Made by a program: the position numbers and the translations under genes. From the IMG/VR virus record IMGVR_UViG_2537561689_000015: a DNA stretch of 24,759 nucleotides. One strand, given 5' to 3'. Under the pieces are notes generated by a model. The model had not been told where the DNA came from, searched no databases, and saw only the letters and a program-made list of their open reading frames with translations. Origin of the DNA: a virus (taxonomy: Duplodnaviria; Heunggongvirae; Uroviricota; Caudoviricetes). Positions 3,891 through 17,377 of this stretch are shown piece by piece; the first letter of the stretch is position 1, and every line of letters begins with the position of its first letter.

Positions 3891-3969
3891 GTTGTTTTAA
3901 CCTCATTACAGATTTAAGGGTGAACAAATCCCTGCCATTGCTGGCATATAAAATGAAACTGGATATTAA

Positions 3970-4173
3970 TTACGGCGCTGTTTTAAGTCCTGCCGGGATT
4001 TCGTTATTATCCATGTGAATAACTTTATCGACCGGATAGCAGTTACCGGGGATTTTTTGTTCTGCTGCGGCAGCCATGCATTCTTTCATTGAACCGTAAA
4101 TGTCAATAACCATGTCAACAGGCTCGCCAGTATTAAGAAAAACAGTCAGAGTGAGGGCAATAGCAGTATTCAT
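3970..4173 (-). CDS. Hypothetical small protein with N-terminal hydrophobic segment
   Basis: Start taken at the internal ATG at 4173, preceded by AAAGGA at good spacing (ORF track extends to 4227). Hydrophobic stretch AIALTLTVFL near the N-terminus. The start overlaps the stop of the upstream ORF as ATGA. Confidence 0.45.
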   Translation of the reverse strand: MNTAIALTLTVFLNTGEPVDMVIDIYGSMKECMAAAAEQKIPGNCYPVDKVIHMDNNEIPAGLKTAP

Positions 4174-4358
4174 TGCCAGTATCCTTTTTGCATCGGGCGT
4201 AAACGTGCCAGCATTGAAAGAATGCATATTTTATTTAATAGCTCCCGTTCGTATTTTCTCTTATTAATGGCATCTTCAGTAAATACTGGGTTACTGATAG
4301 TGACACCAATTTCAAAACAACCTTCAGACGTATTGACGTTTGGTAATAACGTTTCCAT
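4170..4358 (-). CDS. Hypothetical protein (62 aa)
   Basis: Start taken at the internal ATG at 4358, preceded by GAGGA (track ORF 4170..4454). Its stop overlaps the start of the downstream gene (ATGA), suggesting translational coupling. Confidence 0.4.
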   Translation of the reverse strand: METLLPNVNTSEGCFEIGVTISNPVFTEDAINKRKYERELLNKICILSMLARLRPMQKGYWQ

Positions 4359-4547
4359 TATCGCGTCCTCAACAATGAATTTTGTGATGCGGTGCCTGGT
4401 GCCTCCAGGTGACGTTAACCAGTTAATAATTAACGCCGGATACAGAGAACCCACCCATAAGAACCAATACGGAAGTCAACTGGCCTTTTTAACTGTTCCG
4501 CGTGCGCTGAGCCGCATTCACCGCATCACAAAATTCACTTTAAAAGG

Positions 4548-4584
4548 GGCGGGTATCATGGGAAAAACAAAACGGATACCCGCC
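4548..4584 (-). terminator. Perfect 10-bp-stem hairpin, candidate leftward terminator or RNA structure
   Basis: GGCGGGTATC and GATACCCGCC form a perfect inverted repeat around a 17-nt loop. On the minus strand it is followed by CCTTTTAAA, which is only a short T-run. Confidence 0.3.
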
Positions 4585-4924
4585 AAAAGGTAATCAACAT
4601 GGGTTGTTGCAGCGGGATTGTCACTCAGGCGTATGGTCAACCTGACAACCCGGTGGACATTTGCGAGGAACGGAGAACCCCCGCCATACTTACCGCCGCG
4701 CCATTTCGCGGAGTGCCACAACCGGAAGCGCACGGTCGACGAAAATTTAACGACAGGCTATCTATGAACCAGCAACCTCGCCGTGCGCTTTCGCGTTATG
4801 CTCTGACTTTTCAGAGAAATATCCTTTCAGTAAACTGTCAGTGCCGGATGCTCACCCGTGTCCGGCGCACACACTCCACCTCACCCGTGGAGAACTCCTT
4901 AATTACCAACCCTCAGGAGGGTGA

Positions 4925-5158
4925 ATGTTAAAATCAACGCTTATTGCTAAATGCCTTTATCAAAATCGCATGGTAAGCAGCATTTCAATAGGCGAGTCTG
5001 CAGTTAAAAGTATTTTCGAAGAGTACTTTCCCGGGCATGATTTTAATAAATGGAATACCAAATTACCGCCAGCAGTTTCAACGCGTATTCTGAAAGCAAC
5101 TGAAAGAGCAAGTACAATTCGCGTTAACTATTTCATTAAAGATTTGTGGGATCTTTGA
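4925..5158 (+). CDS. Hypothetical protein (77 aa) in an AT-rich segment
   Basis: ATG preceded by AGGAGGGTGA. The gene is AT-rich compared with its flanks and is convergent with the 135-aa gene, with 23 bp of 3' overlap. No recognisable motif. Confidence 0.5.
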   Translation: MLKSTLIAKCLYQNRMVSSISIGESAVKSIFEEYFPGHDFNKWNTKLPPAVSTRILKATERASTIRVNYFIKDLWDL

Positions 5159-5543
5159 TATCCACAGAGCCTAAAGTATGTGCATATGGATGTGCTATTG
5201 TGCGCCCTCGCAGATTTGCATCATTTTCTAAATTCACTGAACGAAACAGGGCATCAACAAGGCTCTGTACAATGCAAAGGCAATCGAAGACTGTCGCCGT
5301 TTCTGTTTTGATTGATGAAAGAACATGGCCATTCACGCAAACAGAAATTACCCGTTTATTAACATCGCTTTCCTGCTTTTGATTATCAGAACCATATAGC
5401 CCTGAAAAAGCATTGCGCACATTACGAACCATATTATCGATGGTTTCTTTTTTGGTGTATGCCGGGTCAATTTTCACCAGACTATCACCGAGTGTCGTTG
5501 CAGCAATTATCTGGATTTCTTTTGGTAAATCTTTAAATTCCAT
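5136..5543 (-). CDS. Hypothetical protein (135 aa)
   Basis: ATG preceded by ACGAGG. AT-rich, and the last gene of the leftward early gene chain. No recognisable motif. Confidence 0.6.
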   Translation of the reverse strand: MEFKDLPKEIQIIAATTLGDSLVKIDPAYTKKETIDNMVRNVRNAFSGLYGSDNQKQESDVNKRVISVCVNGHVLSSIKTETATVFDCLCIVQSLVDALFRSVNLENDANLRGRTIAHPYAHTLGSVDIKDPTNL

Positions 5544-5565
5544 TATTAGCCTCGTTGGTTAACCA

Positions 5566-5784
5566 TTAACGTGGGTATGTAATCATTCTGGCAATGCTTA
5601 ATGCCGCTGCTTTTTCCAGATTGGTGATATCCTGCTCCAGAGCGGACAGATTTTCAGCCTGCTTAGCCCTGGCTTCATTGGCCCATTTCAGGTCCTGCGC
5701 AGCCTTAATTTTCTGGTGCATCCACTCATAAAGTTCATCATCGGTATAGTCTGGCGCGATGATGACGGGTTCTCGTTTCTGCAT
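5566..5784 (-). CDS. Hypothetical coiled-coil protein (72 aa)
   Basis: ATG preceded by GCGAGGAA. Lies 22 bp upstream of the 135-aa gene on the same strand. Confidence 0.55.
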   Translation of the reverse strand: MQKREPVIIAPDYTDDELYEWMHQKIKAAQDLKWANEARAKQAENLSALEQDITNLEKAAALSIARMITYPR

Positions 5785-5813
5785 ACTGATTCCTCGCGGT
5801 GCTGCTTCGCTTA

Positions 5814-5942
5814 TCAGCCGTTAGATTTTGCCGGGCTGGAAAGCGCCTGTATAAACTCACTGAAGCTGAGAGTTTCTTCGCCTTTGGCAAGGCCTTCGAA
5901 GTATTCTTCGTAAGCCTTTTCCATGATTGTGTCGAAATCCAT
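5814..5942 (-). CDS. Hypothetical acidic mini-protein (42 aa)
   Basis: Not in the ORF track because it is under 60 aa. Hand translation gives MDFDTIMEKAYEEYFEGLAKGEETLSFSEFIQALSSPAKSNG. Preceded by GGTGAG, and it begins one codon after the stop of the upstream 55-aa ORF. Confidence 0.4.
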   Translation of the reverse strand: MDFDTIMEKAYEEYFEGLAKGEETLSFSEFIQALSSPAKSNG

Positions 5943-5943
5943 A

Positions 5944-6109
5944 TCACTCACCTGAGTTTCTTTCCAGCCAGCGACGGGCACCATTTTCGGTTTTAAACGT
6001 TTTGCTTTTGGTATACGTCATCGCGGTGAACGTGCCGTCCTGGTTGGGAAACACGCCGTACACCAGAGATTCGTTGTTACCAAGATCGATAGTATCCATG
6101 TTGACCTCA
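5944..6109 (-). CDS. Hypothetical protein (55 aa), first gene of the leftward early operon
   Basis: Start taken at the internal ATG at 6109, preceded by GAGG. The track start at 6204 would lie inside the predicted pL promoter and operator, so it was rejected. Confidence 0.45.
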
Positions 6110-6175
6110 TTTCCCCTTAACGCCGGGTAGCGGAACTGTTTGCTGAGAACACCGTGCGGTGTCTTGATGGGTGGT

Positions 6176-6228
6176 AATTTAGTTTTCTCATGAGTGTTGG
6201 TCAAGTGCTTTTAATGAGAAAACTCAAT
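6176..6228 (-). promoter_or_regulatory. Predicted leftward early promoter (pL-like) with operator repeats (OL)
   Basis: On the minus strand: TTGACC (plus 6199-6204), a 17-bp spacer, then TAAATT (plus 6176-6181). Operator-like TGAGAAAACT(C/A)AA copies lie at about 6178-6191 (minus orientation) and 6215-6227 (plus orientation); the first sits in the promoter spacer. Confidence 0.5.
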
Positions 6229-6288
6229 ATTTAATGCAAAATAAAGCCAATACATTGAAATGTAAGGCTTTAAAATTTGTGAAGGGGA

Positions 6289-6696
6289 TTACTGATGTTT
6301 GTTACGTTTGCGAGCTTCTAGTAGCTCGGTGAATAGGCGATTAAAATTCTCAACGCGGGCACGGAGTTCGCTGATTTGTGCTTGCTGCTCTGATTTTGGA
6401 AGTGCGCGATACAATCGCAACATCTCCAACTCATCTTCCGATAAGTCTAAGGCGCTGTTGAGTGCAACTGGTGGATCTGGTGTTTTATCCTCGTCACCAA
6501 ACAGTATCCAAGTTGGTGAACATTGCAATACCTCAGCCAGGCGATGCAAATTTTGCCCACGCGGGGCTGTATGGTCGCTTTCCCATAGTGAAATTGATGA
6601 GCCAGATACGCCAGCGGCTTTGCTTAAATCGTTTTGACTTAAACCAACCTGTTTGCGTCTTTCTCTAATTCGTTGACCTAAAGTTTTCTCGTTCAT
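6289..6696 (-). CDS. Prophage repressor, XRE/cI-type helix-turn-helix, without a peptidase domain
   Basis: 135 aa. N-terminal HTH region (QRIRERRKQVGLSQNDLSKAAGVSGSSISLWE) followed by a helical C-terminus. Too short to carry a LexA/S24 autocleavage domain. Divergent from the Cro-like gene. No Shine-Dalgarno sequence before its ATG, so it may be leaderless. Confidence 0.85.
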   Translation of the reverse strand: MNEKTLGQRIRERRKQVGLSQNDLSKAAGVSGSSISLWESDHTAPRGQNLHRLAEVLQCSPTWILFGDEDKTPDPPVALNSALDLSEDELEMLRLYRALPKSEQQAQISELRARVENFNRLFTELLEARKRNKHQ

Positions 6697-6714: not shown

Positions 6715-6761
6715 CCCTTGACTTGAGATTCCTTGAGTGATTACTATTGAGAAAACTCAAT
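6715..6761 (+). promoter_or_regulatory. Predicted rightward early promoter (pR-like) with operator repeats (OR)
   Basis: TTGACT at 6718-6723, an 18-bp spacer, then TACTAT at 6742-6747. Operator TTGAGAAAACTCAA at 6747-6760 overlaps the -10 and start region. Further TTGAG half-sites at 6723 and 6733. Confidence 0.5.
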
Positions 6762-6773
6762 TTTGGAGGGGTG

Positions 6774-7001
6774 ATGTTTAAATCAGACGTAATTAATTTT
6801 TATGGGACGAAAGCCAAAGTAGCGAAAGCTGCTGGTGTTGATCCATCTGCTGTTTCTCAATGGGGGGAACTGGTTCCTGAAGGTCGCGCGATGCGCCTGC
6901 AAGAGGCATCCGACGGGGAACTTCAGTACGACCCCAAAGTTTATGACGAATATCGTAAGGCAAAGCGGGCGGGGCGGTTGAACAATGAAAATCACCCCTG
7001 A
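6774..7001 (+). CDS. Cro-like small DNA-binding regulator (YdaS-like family)
   Basis: Start taken at the ATG at 6774, preceded by GGAGGGG (the track start at 6747 is a TTG inside the promoter). HTH-like segment with the VSQW motif common to Cro/YdaS-type proteins. Divergent from the repressor. Confidence 0.7.
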   Translation: MFKSDVINFYGTKAKVAKAAGVDPSAVSQWGELVPEGRAMRLQEASDGELQYDPKVYDEYRKAKRAGRLNNENHP

Positions 7002-7506
7002 ACAGGTTTGTGAGGCTCTGGATGCCTGGGTATGTCGACCAGGAATGACACAGGAGCAGGCGACGATATTAATCACGGAAGCATTCTGGGCTCTGAAAGA
7101 ACGCCCGAACATCGATGTTCAACGCGTCACGTTTAATGATGGCGAGGTTGATCAACGGGCGCTGGGCGTTAACCGGGTGAAGATATTCGAACGCTGGAAA
7201 GCTATCGACACCAGGGATAAGCGGAAAAAATTCACGGCGCTGATTCCGGCAATTATGGAGGCTATCCGGATTAATGATTTCAGGTTGTATCGTGAAATTA
7301 CTGACGGAAAAAGCATTACGTACATGATCGCCGGGTTAAATAAAGAATATGGCGATGTGGTGGAATCCGGACTGCTTTTTGCAGATCCAGCTGTAGTGGA
7401 TCGTGAAACTGACGAACTTATAGAAAAAGCAATTGCTTTCAAGCTTGCGTATCGACAGCAATACCAACAAAAAGCTGGATGGAATTATGAGTCTTCTTTT
7501 TGCTGA
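6985..7506 (+). CDS. YdaT-like protein (proposed CII-type regulator family)
   Basis: 173 aa, immediately after the Cro-like gene and before the O-like gene, the position YdaT occupies in Rac-type prophages. Overlaps both neighbours. Assignment by position and general resemblance, not a verified alignment. Confidence 0.7.
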   Translation: MKITPEQVCEALDAWVCRPGMTQEQATILITEAFWALKERPNIDVQRVTFNDGEVDQRALGVNRVKIFERWKAIDTRDKRKKFTALIPAIMEAIRINDFRLYREITDGKSITYMIAGLNKEYGDVVESGLLFADPAVVDRETDELIEKAIAFKLAYRQQYQQKAGWNYESSFC

Positions 7507-11322: not shown

Positions 11323-11533
11323 AAACGGTTTGCGGGGAAATCTTAGTTAAGTAGAATGACTGTGGGTGCTTGAGGCTATCTGTCTCAGGCATGAACACCA
11401 AAAGGCAGATAGAGAAAAGCCCCAGTTAACATTACGCGTCCTGCAAGACGCTTAACATTAATCTGAGGCTCAATCCATGCTGAACACATGTAGGTTAGCC
11501 TCTTACGTGCCGAAAGGCAAGGAGAAGCAGGCT

Positions 11534-11689
11534 ATGAAGCAGCAAAAGGCGATGTTAATCGCCCTTATCGTCATCTGTTTAACCGTCATAGTGACGGCAC
11601 TGGTAACGAGGAAAGACCTCTGCGAGGTACGAATCCGAACCGGCCAGACGGAGGTCGCTGTCTTCACAGCTTACGAACCTGAGGAGTAA
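11534..11689 (+). CDS. hok: Hok/Gef-family type I toxin (small membrane toxin)
   Basis: 51-aa product MKQQKAMLIALIVICLTVIVTALVTRKDLCEVRIRTGQTEVAVFTAYEPEE, which I recognise as Hok-family (closest in my memory to HokD/RelF). Strong AAGGAGAAG Shine-Dalgarno. An in-frame upstream extension from 11477 may be a Mok-like leader reading frame. Structured leader and a terminal hairpin as in hok mRNAs. Confidence 0.85.
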   Translation: MKQQKAMLIALIVICLTVIVTALVTRKDLCEVRIRTGQTEVAVFTAYEPEE

Positions 11690-17127: not shown

Positions 17128-17203
17128 GGCCCTTTAGCTCAGTGGTGAGAGCGAGCGACTCATAATCGCCAGGTCGCTGGTTCAAATCCAGCAAGGGCCA
17201 CCA
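17128..17203 (+). tRNA. tRNA with CAU anticodon (Ile2/lysidine-type or Met)
   Basis: Hand-folded cloverleaf: acceptor GGCCCTT/AAGGGCC, D-stem GCTC/GAGC, anticodon loop CTCATAA, T-loop TTCAAAT, 3' CCA encoded. Resembles the ileX/ileZ-type tRNA of E. coli. Confidence 0.85.
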
Positions 17204-17210
17204 TCACATA

Positions 17211-17287
17211 CCGCCATTAGCTCATCAGGATAGAGCGCCAGCCTTCGAAGCTGGTTGCGCGGGGTTCGAGTCCTCGATGGCGGTCCA
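17211..17287 (+). tRNA. tRNA-Arg (anticodon UCG)
   Basis: Hand-folded cloverleaf: acceptor CCGCCAT/ATGGCGG, anticodon stem CCAGC/GCTGG with loop CTTCGAA, T-loop TTCGAGT, CCA encoded. Confidence 0.8.
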
Positions 17288-17300
17288 TTATCTGTACCCT

Positions 17301-17377
17301 GCGTTGTTAGCTCAGCCGGACAGAGCAATTGCCTTCTAAGCAATCGGTCACTGGTTCGAATCCAGTACAACGCGCCA
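17301..17377 (+). tRNA. tRNA-Arg (anticodon UCU)
   Basis: Hand-folded cloverleaf: acceptor GCGTTGT/ACAACGC, anticodon stem ATTGC/GCAAT with loop CTTCTAA, T-loop TTCGAAT, CCA encoded. Confidence 0.8.

What the first reader, a model, noticed from the sequence alone, without database searches (positions are those of the whole stretch)
4925..5543. AT-rich convergent two-gene cassette of unknown function between the exonuclease and the immunity region
Two ORFs (77 aa on plus, 135 aa on minus) are markedly more AT-rich than their flanks, have good ribosome-binding sites, converge with a 23-bp 3' overlap, and match no family I recognise. The location, between the leftward early genes and the recombination genes, is a hotspot in lambdoid phages for superinfection-exclusion and anti-phage cargo such as lambda rexAB and sieB. 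The convergent overlap would give antisense transcripts, a pattern seen in toxin/immunity pairs. This is my best candidate for an undescribed accessory or defence module.
Basis: partly seen in the sequence, partly recalled or inferred. Interest (0 to 1): 0.7.

Follow-up and report, generated by a model that had tools for sequence, protein, structure and literature searches.

The report
Conserved convergent two-gene prophage cassette
The two head-on, overlapping genes are real and form a small add-on cassette of unknown function that travels as a unit among prophages of E. coli and about twenty related genera; it sits where phages keep genes for fighting other phages, but nothing yet shows that this is its job.

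Summary
ORF77 (4925-5158, +) and ORF135 (5136-5543, -) exist, overlap by 23 bp, and lie in the most AT-rich stretch of the window. They form a 634-bp cassette (4912-5545) between ydfC and the DicF-like leader of a Qin/dicB-type prophage. This junction is empty in 2854 of 5426 complete E. coli genomes; the ORF77 segment is present in 650.

Both genes are real. ORF77 has 77-aa homologues (55-72% identity) across Enterobacterales, dN/dS of about 0.1-0.4, and a confident five-helix model with no structural match. The last ~75 residues of ORF135 are a domain that faces essentially every ORF77 homologue convergently, with a 23-bp overlap in 90 of 96 loci. Outside E. coli this partner gene is usually the first gene left of the CI repressor.

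In E. coli the slot is polymorphic. At least three other cassettes share ORF135's N-terminal domain but carry unrelated C-domains and unrelated convergent small genes. No Pfam, NCBIfam, PADLOC, PDB or Rfam match exists.

My best guess (about 0.3) is a cognate pair: ORF77 made by the prophage and the partner made from the early-left promoter, acting in phage-phage conflict. A defence role is untested, and classic toxin-antitoxin membership fails.

The parts
4912..5545 (.). The 634-bp accessory cassette: the segment that is absent from phage Tritos and from the common 'empty' ydfC-leader junction.
   Evidence: BLAST and alignment of the window against Tritos place the breakpoints after 4911 and before 5546. 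The empty junction is present in 2854 of 5426 E. coli genomes. GC is 0.391, the lowest of any 634-bp window.
4915..4920 (+). Shine-Dalgarno sequence AGGAGG of ORF77. The block CTCAGGAGGGTGA is shared with the alternative ORF63 allele.
   Evidence: Sequence. The same upstream block precedes ORF63 in L009.
4925..5158 (+). ORF77: a 77-aa basic (pI 9.5), soluble, five-helix protein of a conserved uncharacterised family (phrog_10348).
5136..5158 (.). The 23-bp 3'-3' overlap of the two coding regions. The stop codon of ORF135 is the complement of the ORF77 Ile71/Lys72 codons.
   Evidence: The overlap is the same length in 90 of 96 loci that carry an ORF77 homologue.
5136..5372 (-). Partner domain of ORF135 (residues 58-135 plus the stop codon): a beta-hairpin followed by two helices, then a conserved G(K/R)TIxHP tail.
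   Evidence: It is homologous to stand-alone proteins of roughly 75-90 aa that are encoded convergently to ORF77 homologues. The model has pLDDT 72-84 in the domain core.
5373..5543 (-). N-terminal domain of ORF135 (residues 1-57, MEFKDLPKEIQ..., two helices plus a disordered linker). Alternative proteins at the same slot share this domain.
   Evidence: PHROG hits cover only residues 1-66. Proteins P0044, P0046 and P0050 share this N-terminus but have other C-domains. Model.
5566..5784 (-). ydfC, the operon gene immediately upstream of the cassette (context).
   Evidence: PGAP annotation; phrog_1744.
4591..4911 (-). Conserved GC-rich non-coding leader between the cassette and the DicF-like sRNA. 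It ends in the hairpin CTCCAC-N7-GTGGAG, next to the cassette's left junction (context).
   Evidence: Alignment with Tritos and Evi is near-invariant. Composition.
4540..4590 (-). DicF-like sRNA variant (approximate coordinates; context).
   Evidence: Position inferred from the DicF feature annotated in Tritos and alignment A3. A terminator-like stem lies at 4584-4571.
4170..4358 (-). dicB, the cell-division inhibitor downstream in the same operon (context).
   Evidence: Pfam DicB, E = 4.9e-38. PGAP annotation.

Best explanation
The feature is a mobile two-gene accessory cassette carried by temperate phages of Enterobacterales.

Shown:
- ORF135 lies in the repressor-controlled early-left operon.
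- Its C-terminal ~75-aa partner domain and the convergent gene ORF77 form an evolutionary unit with a fixed 23-bp 3' overlap.
- Both genes are under purifying selection.
- In other genera the partner is usually the first gene next to the CI repressor, and ORF77 is preceded by a conserved promoter-like element.
- In E. coli the slot after ydfC is empty in most genomes. Otherwise it holds one of several cassettes of the same design: a shared N-domain, an unrelated C-domain, and an unrelated convergent small gene.

Inferred:
- The two products are a cognate pair made in opposite states of the phage.
- ORF77 is made from its own promoter while the prophage is repressed.
- The partner is made from the early-left promoter on induction or infection. 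It counteracts ORF77 by binding it, helped by head-on transcription and antisense pairing.
- The likely role is in phage-phage conflict: exclusion of incoming phages, with self-protection for the resident phage.

This logic resembles P22/lambda SieB with Esc. The polarity (which protein is effector and which is antidote) and the target are unknown.
For: - Real genes: 77-aa homologues at 55-72% identity occur in about 20 genera. dN/dS is 0.1-0.4 for ORF77 and 0.15-0.65 for the partner. The ORF77 model has pLDDT 96.7.
- Unit: 90 of 96 loci with an ORF77 homologue have a convergent partner-domain ORF overlapping by 23 bp, and 2 more overlap by 26 bp. Stand-alone partners in Citrobacter, Erwinia and a zinc-finger fusion also face ORF77 homologues.
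- Position: the partner is next to the CI repressor in Serratia, Dickeya, Klebsiella, Citrobacter and Erwinia prophages. Lambda sieB abuts N in the same convergent way.
- Own promoter: all 20 distinct non-E. coli upstream regions carry TGnTAnnnT at -39 to -43 from the ATG, with a TTCACC-like -35.
- Accessory and polymorphic: the junction is empty in 2854 genomes and the ORF77 segment is present in 650 of 5426. The alleles 201 aa + ORF63, 208 aa + ORF69 and 179 aa + ORF80 have the same architecture, and their parts are unrelated in sequence.
- Asymmetry: the partner domain occurs without ORF77 (the 201-aa allele), whereas within prophages ORF77 was never seen without a partner.
- Charge: ORF77 has pI 9.5 and the partner domain pI 5.8.
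Against: - There is no experimental or expression evidence of any kind.
- No defence or toxin family is matched.
- In E. coli the cassette begins only 13 nt before the ORF77 ATG. No sigma-70-like promoter is found upstream, so ORF77 may be silent here.
- Co-variation of the long and small genes could simply reflect swapping of whatever lies between two conserved flanks.
- The conserved 23-bp overlap follows from joint inheritance plus a conserved Ile-Lys codon pair, so it is not independent evidence of coupling.
- A distant ORF77 homologue (43% identity) stands alone in a non-prophage context in Psychrosphaera.
- No interaction between the two proteins could be predicted, because only single chains can be modelled and the ORF135 model is weak (pLDDT 70).
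Confidence: 0.32

Rival explanations
1. Reverse polarity, as in colicin operons. The long early protein (shared N-domain plus variable C-domain) is an effector made on induction. It might act in host takeover, as a toxin, or as an anti-defence protein. The small convergent protein is its constitutively made immunity or antidote, which protects the lysogen from leaky expression or neutralises the same effector brought by a related superinfecting phage.
For: The design is a conserved N-terminus with a variable C-terminus, followed by a small variable gene. Pore-forming colicin operons carry their immunity gene on the opposite strand between the colicin and lysis genes (established knowledge). 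The long gene is under the repressor-controlled early promoter. A promoter-like element precedes the small gene.
Against: The 201-aa allele keeps the partner domain but lacks ORF77. That would leave a toxin without its immunity, unless the added C-domain and ORF63 replace the pair. The partner also occurs as a bare domain of about 78 aa, with none of the enzymatic motifs expected of a toxin. No toxin family is matched.
Confidence: 0.2
2. These are two functionally independent accessory or early genes that are inherited together only because they are adjacent. ORF77 could be a small regulator or host-modulating factor. The overlap has no regulatory or protein-level meaning.
For: Tight linkage alone explains the co-inheritance and the constant overlap. 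The partner tolerates loss of ORF77. A solo ORF77 relative exists. There is no direct evidence of interaction.
Against: The association persists through saturated synonymous divergence and strong mosaicism of the neighbouring genes. Four unrelated cassettes at one slot all have the same convergent long-plus-small design.
Confidence: 0.25
3. The cassette mainly acts in cis as an insulator of the toxic downstream dicF/dicB genes. Head-on transcription from ORF77, plus 634 bp of extra AT-rich transcript, would reduce leaky read-through from the early-left promoter.
For: The cassette lies between the operon promoter and the DicF-like sRNA and dicB. No intrinsic terminator lies inside it, so convergent transcripts would collide.
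Against: Both proteins are under protein-level purifying selection. In other genera the same pair occurs without dicF or dicB downstream. No promoter for ORF77 is evident in E. coli.
Confidence: 0.1
4. It is a classical toxin-antitoxin system, either type II or type I with a 3'-overlapping antisense RNA.
For: It is a two-gene small module on a mobile element. The 3' overlap recalls txpA/ratA and bsrG/SR4 (established knowledge).
Against: The genes are convergent rather than co-transcribed. Both are conserved soluble proteins (GRAVY below or near 0), not a hydrophobic peptide paired with a non-coding RNA. No toxin or antitoxin family or fold is matched.
Confidence: 0.05
5. ORF77 is a chance or antisense shadow ORF and only ORF135 is a gene.
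For: ORF77 lies opposite an operon and has no evident promoter in E. coli. Many ORF135 relatives are 201 aa long, which at first suggested a truncated longer gene running through the ORF77 region.
Against: The C-terminus of the 201-aa proteins matches no frame of 4900-5136. ORF77 keeps its length of 77 aa and its sequence across genera, with dN/dS of 0.1-0.4 and free synonymous variation. It also folds with pLDDT 96.7.
Confidence: 0.02

Closest known systems
Lambda/P22 sieB (with Esc), a superinfection-exclusion gene placed convergently against the first early-left gene N/24
   Same: The topology is the same: a rightward gene inside the leftward early region, ending against the 3' end of an early-left gene. 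In lambda, sieB and N abut with no gap. Both are accessory genes that are variably present.
   Different: There is no sequence relationship (hhalign probability 0.3%). SieB is about 184 aa with hydrophobic segments, whereas ORF77 is a 77-aa soluble helical protein. Esc is an in-frame product of sieB, not a convergent gene. Exclusion has not been tested for ORF77.
Pore-forming colicin operons (for example colicins A, E1, Ia), with the immunity gene on the opposite strand
   Same: An SOS/repressor-controlled long gene faces a small, convergently oriented gene that probably has its own promoter. The long protein has a conserved N-terminal part and a variable C-terminal part, and the small partner co-varies with it.
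   Different: There is no homology. The small proteins here are soluble, not membrane immunity proteins. The element is a phage early operon, not a plasmid. Neither toxicity nor immunity has been shown.
Qin dicBF operon of E. coli K-12 (ydfA-ydfB-ydfC-dicF-dicB-ydfD)
   Same: The window has the same operon skeleton: DUF1391/ydfA, ydfC, a DicF-like sRNA, DicB, and DUF1482/ydfD.
   Different: Phage Tritos, and the 2854 E. coli genomes with the empty junction, join ydfC directly to the dicF leader. I recall the same arrangement in K-12 Qin but did not check it here. The window carries the extra 634-bp cassette and a divergent DicF.
Type I toxin-antitoxin loci with 3'-overlapping convergent transcripts (txpA/ratA, bsrG/SR4, par of pAD1)
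   Same: Convergent transcription units overlap at their 3' ends on prophages or plasmids.
   Different: Those loci pair a small hydrophobic toxin peptide with a non-coding antisense RNA. Here both partners are conserved, soluble, folded proteins.
Phage 'morons' (lambda bor/lom, rexAB, HK022 nun) as a general class
   Same: The cassette shows presence/absence polymorphism in otherwise syntenic phages, deviant (low) GC, and tight boundaries around the coding sequence.
   Different: In E. coli no promoter or terminator belonging to the cassette could be found. It holds two opposed genes rather than one autonomous transcription unit, and one of them is fused in frame to a resident operon gene's N-terminal domain.

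Membership tests
SieB superinfection exclusion protein | Sequence membership in the SieB family (about 160-190 aa, hydrophobic segments) | tested here: not met
   No Pfam hit. hhalign of the ORF77 profile against lambda SieB gives probability 0.3%. ORF77 is 77 aa with GRAVY -0.13.
SieB superinfection exclusion protein | Rightward gene convergent with an early-left gene near the immunity region | tested here: met
   ORF77 (+) converges on ORF135 (-). Lambda sieB (+) abuts N (-).
SieB superinfection exclusion protein | Expressed from the prophage, and aborts growth of superinfecting phages | not testable with these tools
   This needs transcript mapping and plaque assays.
Lambda N-type antiterminator (for the partner, as first early-left gene) | Arginine-rich N-terminal motif and homology to N | tested here: not met
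   hhalign probability is 0.07%. No arginine-rich motif appears in the alignment.
Type II toxin-antitoxin system | Two co-directional, co-transcribed genes | tested here: not met
   The genes are convergent.
Type II toxin-antitoxin system | Match to a known toxin or antitoxin family or fold | tested here: not met
Type I toxin-antitoxin system with 3'-overlapping antisense RNA | Small hydrophobic toxin peptide plus a non-coding antisense RNA | tested here: not met
   Both partners are conserved soluble proteins under purifying selection. No Rfam family is matched in 3900-6300.
Known anti-phage defence systems (PADLOC-DB v2) | HMM match of any component | tested here: not met
   There are no hits for ORF77, ORF135 or ydfC. 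For the alternative alleles the only hit is a Csn2 match to ORF63 at E = 0.014 (12.5 bits), which I take as chance.
dicBF-type early-left operon of Qin-like prophages (context) | DicA/CI-like repressor, DUF1391/ydfA, ydfC, DicF, DicB and DUF1482/ydfD in order on one strand | tested here: met
   Pfam DicB, DUF1391 and DUF1482 hits. PGAP annotates ydfC and dicB. DicF is identified by synteny with Tritos, although the Rfam DicF model does not match the divergent copy.
Phage moron | Present/absent between otherwise collinear phages, with deviant base composition | tested here: met
Phage moron | Own promoter and terminator flanking the gene | tested here: inconclusive
   None is detected in the E. 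coli cassette. A conserved extended -10-like element lies upstream of ORF77 in all 20 distinct non-E. coli contexts. No terminator was found.
Polymorphic effector/immunity pairs (colicin- or CDI-like logic) | Conserved N-terminal region, variable C-terminal domain, adjacent co-varying small gene | tested here: met
   Four alleles share the MEFKDLPKEIQ domain but have unrelated C-domains and unrelated small genes.
Polymorphic effector/immunity pairs (colicin- or CDI-like logic) | The C-domain is a toxin, and the small protein binds and neutralises it specifically | not testable with these tools
This needs toxicity and cross-protection assays.

The most novel reading that the evidence does not exclude
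The slot after the first early-left genes of enterobacterial lambdoid prophages holds an undescribed class of polymorphic, convergently encoded cognate protein pairs. One member is made by the resident prophage and the other by an inducing or incoming phage. Together they decide which related phages can grow in a lysogen, giving a protein-level layer of immunity or exclusion that is independent of the CI repressor. ORF77 and its partner would be the most widespread type.
Probability: 0.22. Interest if true: 0.75.

Novelty: new variant of a known kind. Interest (0 to 1): 0.5.

Why it matters
The cassette is in about 12% of complete E. coli genomes, including O157:H7, O55:H7, O103, O111 and ETEC strains. 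It is also in prophages of roughly twenty enterobacterial genera. Yet both proteins are annotated only as hypothetical, and ORF77 has a confidently predicted fold with no known relative.

The cassette occupies the same kind of position as sieB, rex and nun. It also shows the signature of conflict systems: several interchangeable cognate-looking cassettes at one slot. If the pair controls phage-phage exclusion or self-immunity, it would add a new and very compact type of system, and a defined hotspot to mine. It might also affect how Stx-phage-rich strains take up or resist further phages.

If it proves to be only a pair of early accessory genes, the result is still a clean definition of two new conserved phage protein families and of a polymorphic insertion site in the dicBF operon.

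Tried and rejected
1. I suspected ORF77 was an antisense shadow of a longer gene, because many ORF135 relatives are 201 aa. This was rejected. The extra C-terminus matches no frame of 4900-5136, and ORF77 has independent homologues.
2. Rfam found nothing relevant in or next to the cassette, at gathering threshold on the whole window or at E<=5 on 3900-6300.
3. Pfam, PHROGs, NCBIfam and PADLOC gave only unknown-function PHROGs for both proteins and for the alternative alleles.
5. PDB sequence-profile searches were empty.
6. The exhaustive representative search with the partner domain gave only a handful of true relatives, plus two low-complexity false hits (P0085, P0088).
7. The search for related loci with the partner alignment failed, because no stretch was conserved enough. 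The species-level genome scan with ORF77 gave only four loci.
8. I tested whether ORF77 is SieB and whether the partner is N. Both were rejected.
9. A literature search by RefSeq accession found nothing, and the dicBF regulation preprint does not discuss this region.
10. A 10-nt perfect inverted repeat (5136-5145 / 5527-5536) links the two ends of ORF135. I judged it compatible with chance in AT-rich DNA.
11. One source labels ORF77 'dGTP triphosphohydrolase'. I treated this as a mis-annotation, since no family or fold supports it.

Full report
**1.

- The window contains a 77-aa ORF at 4925-5158 (+) and a 135-aa ORF at 5136-5543 (-). They converge and share 23 bp, 5136-5158.
- ORF77 is preceded by AGGAGG (4915-4920). 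ORF135 is preceded by GAGG, 7 nt from its ATG.
- The segment 4912-5545 has GC 0.391. The window mean is 0.496 (sd 0.041 for 634-bp windows), and no other window of that size is as low.
- PGAP annotates both ORFs as hypothetical proteins in E. coli genomes that are 100% identical here, mostly human ETEC-like isolates.

**2. Context**

The window is a Qin/dicB-type lambdoid prophage. On the minus strand, in order:

- a DicA/CI-like repressor (6289-6696)
- DUF1391/ydfA, a ydfB-like ORF, and ydfC (5566-5784)
- ORF135
- about 330 nt of conserved GC-rich leader
- a DicF-like sRNA (about 4540-4590)
- dicB (4170-4358) and DUF1482/ydfD
- a large exonuclease

These assignments rest. So ORF135 is a gene of the repressor-controlled early-left operon, and ORF77 is antisense to that operon.

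**3. It is a discrete insertion**

- Phage Tritos is collinear with the window but joins ydfC directly to the leader. Alignment puts the breakpoints after 4911 and before 5546, giving a 634-bp cassette.
- The cassette holds only the ORF77 ribosome-binding site, ORF77 and ORF135. Just 2 nt precede the ORF135 ATG.
- Among 5426 complete E. coli genomes, the empty junction occurs in 2854.
- The ORF77 segment occurs in 650, including O157:H7, O55:H7, O103 and O111 strains.
- Among isolate phage records it is found only in the PPompW prophages and phage Evi.

**4. ORF77 is a real gene**

- I first suspected an antisense shadow ORF, because many ORF135 relatives are 201 aa long. Their extra C-terminus matches no reading frame of 4900-5136.
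- ORF77 has homologues of 77 aa, or 77 aa behind a mis-called upstream extension, at 55-72% identity. They occur in Klebsiella, Serratia, Dickeya, Xenorhabdus, Yersinia, Morganella, Proteus, Salmonella, Erwinia and Citrobacter.
- Pairwise dN/dS is about 0.1-0.4, with synonymous sites saturated between genera.
- The invariant N-terminal peptide MLKSTLIAKCL still varies at third codon positions, so the constraint is on the protein.
- AlphaFold2 gives a five-helix globule with pLDDT 96.7 and pTM 0.85.

**5. ORF135 is a fusion, and its C-terminal half is ORF77's constant companion**

- PHROG hits show that residues 1-66 are shared with several other families.
- In Serratia, Dickeya, Klebsiella and Xenorhabdus prophages, each ORF77 homologue faces a convergent gene of 77-85 aa. 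That protein aligns with ORF135 residues about 60-135. Conserved positions include VNG, T.TA, D, LE.EAN.SG(K/R)TI.HP.
- A profile search finds 113 clusters of this partner domain in about twenty enterobacterial genera. Some carry an N-terminal ClpX-type C4 zinc finger.
- Across 96 loci with an ORF77 homologue, 90 have a convergent partner-domain ORF overlapping by exactly 23 bp, and 2 overlap by 26 bp. The rest are truncated or disrupted, or the distant Psychrosphaera case.
- Partner genes picked independently of ORF77 (Citrobacter, Erwinia, a zinc-finger fusion) also face ORF77 homologues.
- The partner is under purifying selection.
- Its model is only moderate: pLDDT 70 overall and 72-84 in the beta-hairpin plus two-helix core. 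It has no meaningful structural match.

The constant 23-bp overlap arises because the partner's stop codon is the complement of ORF77's conserved Ile71-Lys72 codons. It therefore shows joint inheritance, not an independent functional constraint.

**6. Position and possible promoter**

- Outside E. coli, the partner is usually the first gene to the left of the CI repressor. That is the slot of lambda N.
- In lambda itself the rightward exclusion gene sieB abuts N convergently. The topology is therefore a known one for prophage-expressed exclusion genes.
- ORF77 is not SieB and the partner is not N.
- All 20 distinct non-E. coli upstream regions carry a conserved hairpin whose 5' arm reads TTCACC. 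After a spacer of about 16 nt comes TGnTAnnnT (commonly TGGTATCTT), at -39 to -43 from the ATG. This looks like an extended -10 promoter.
- The E. coli cassette lacks this element. The simple promoter scan finds nothing upstream of ORF77, and no terminator inside the cassette.
- Whether ORF77 is expressed in E. coli is therefore open.

**7. The E. coli slot is polymorphic**

Proteins that share ORF135's N-terminal domain (MEFKDLPKEIQ...) but carry other C-domains sit at the same place. Each faces a different small convergent ORF:

| Long protein | Convergent small ORF | Junction | Locus |
|---|---|---|---|
| 135 aa (this window) | ORF77 | 23-bp overlap | window |
| 201 aa (partner domain plus an extra 70-aa domain) | ORF63 | 23-bp overlap, same CTCAGGAGGGTGA block | L009 |
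| 208 aa | ORF69 | abutting | L107 |
| 179 aa | ORF80 (possible zinc ribbon) | 20-bp overlap | L109 |

- The C-domains and the small proteins are mutually unrelated, all are soluble, and none has a credible Pfam or PADLOC match.
- The 201-aa/ORF63 allele is rare, in 8 of 5426 genomes.
- The design is a conserved N-terminus, a variable C-terminus and a co-varying adjacent small gene. That design is typical of cognate effector/immunity pairs.
- The opposite-strand small gene recalls pore-forming colicin operons (established knowledge).
- The caveat is that anything lying between two conserved recombination flanks will co-vary.

**8. Mechanism**

Shown:
- The cassette is a mobile, conserved, two-gene unit.
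- One gene is in the early-left operon and the other is opposed to it.
- Both are under selection.
- A promoter-like element precedes the opposed gene in most genera.
- Several interchangeable cassettes share the same design.

Inferred:
- The products are a cognate pair made in opposite phage states. ORF77 would be made in the lysogen and the partner on induction or infection.
- The partner would counteract ORF77 by binding, and by head-on transcription.
- The role would be in phage-phage conflict.

Weak support for ORF77 being the component that needs an antidote:
- Within prophages it was never seen without a partner, whereas the partner domain exists without ORF77.
- The charges are complementary, pI 9.5 against 5.8.

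Against:
- There are no expression or interaction data.
- No defence-family match exists.
- No promoter is evident in E. coli.
- A solo distant homologue exists in Psychrosphaera.

I give this mechanism about 0.3. The reverse polarity gets about 0.2, unrelated linked genes about 0.25, a cis-insulating role about 0.1, and classical toxin-antitoxin about 0.05. A spurious ORF77 is essentially excluded.

**9. Comparison and novelty**

- The closest known arrangements are lambda/P22 sieB against N/24, colicin immunity genes on the opposite strand, and type I toxin-antitoxin loci with 3' overlaps. The cassette shares topology with each but fails their defining sequence or molecular features (see the membership table).
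- It is best described as a new variant of the known kind 'prophage accessory cassette in the immunity-region hotspot', built from two new protein families.
- Interest is moderate. The cassette is widespread, compact and testable, but its function is unproven.

Noticed in passing
window ~4540-4590 (-): The DicF-like sRNA here is a divergent variant. Compared with canonical DicF in phages Tritos and Evi, it has a 9-nt deletion and a different 5' part and loop, while the terminator is kept. The Rfam DicF model does not match it even at E<=5, so its target range may differ from K-12 DicF.
   Followed up: partly
window 4591-4911 (-): The ~320-nt GC-rich non-coding leader between ydfC (or the cassette) and DicF is nearly invariant among the window, Tritos and Evi. 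It is more conserved than the neighbouring coding DNA and ends in a CTCCAC-N7-GTGGAG hairpin at the cassette junction. It may be a structured RNA or processing element.
   Followed up: partly
window 4381-4535 (-): There is a sub-threshold Rfam match to the sRNA STnc100 (33.5 bits against a gathering score of 47, E = 5.6e-05). It covers the DicF-dicB spacer and the start of dicB.
   Followed up: no
window 4893-4911 and 5546-5566: The cassette is bracketed by an imperfect inverted repeat (TTAATTACCAACC ... GGTTGGTTAAC). In the cassette-less phage Tritos the two arms lie next to each other as a small hairpin, so the cassette sits in its loop. Each arm supplies the 5' leader of one of the two convergent genes.
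   Followed up: partly
loci L009 (4001-4775), L107 (2013-2849), L109 (3001-3763): Three other cassettes occupy the same slot in other E. coli prophages: 201 aa + ORF63, 208 aa + ORF69 and 179 aa + ORF80. All share ORF135's N-terminal domain, and all have a convergent small ORF of unknown family.
   Followed up: partly
proteins P0101, P0143, P0159, P0170; locus L103 4001-4606: Some partner-domain proteins in Citrobacter and Yersinia are fused to an N-terminal ClpX-type C4 zinc finger (PF06689). In L103 this fusion overlaps a divergent ORF77 homologue by 51 bp.
   Followed up: partly
locus L019 4989-5228: A distant ORF77 homologue (43% identity) lies alone in a Psychrosphaera chromosome, between a chemotaxis-receptor-like gene and a large glycosidase-like gene. 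There is no partner domain and no prophage context.
   Followed up: partly
window 11364-11539 (+): There is a full-length Rfam match to the sok antitoxin RNA (118.9 bits). This implies a hok/sok-type type I toxin-antitoxin locus elsewhere in the same prophage.
   Followed up: no
window 17128-17374 (+): Three tandem tRNA genes lie in the late region of the prophage.
   Followed up: no
window 6747-7506 (+): The rightward genes next to the repressor are a Cro/YdaS-like HTH protein and a YdaT-family protein, which PGAP annotates as 'toxin YdaT family protein'.
   Followed up: no
ORF77 cluster: One public source names the exact ORF77 sequence 'dGTP triphosphohydrolase'. No family, profile or fold result supports this, so it looks like an annotation error that may propagate.
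   Followed up: partly
window 5136-5145 and 5527-5536: A perfect 10-nt inverted repeat (TTAAAGATTT / AAATCTTTAA) links the stop region of ORF135 and the end of ORF77 with the first codons of ORF135. Both proteins carry a (F/I)KDL motif there. This is probably chance in AT-rich DNA.
   Followed up: no
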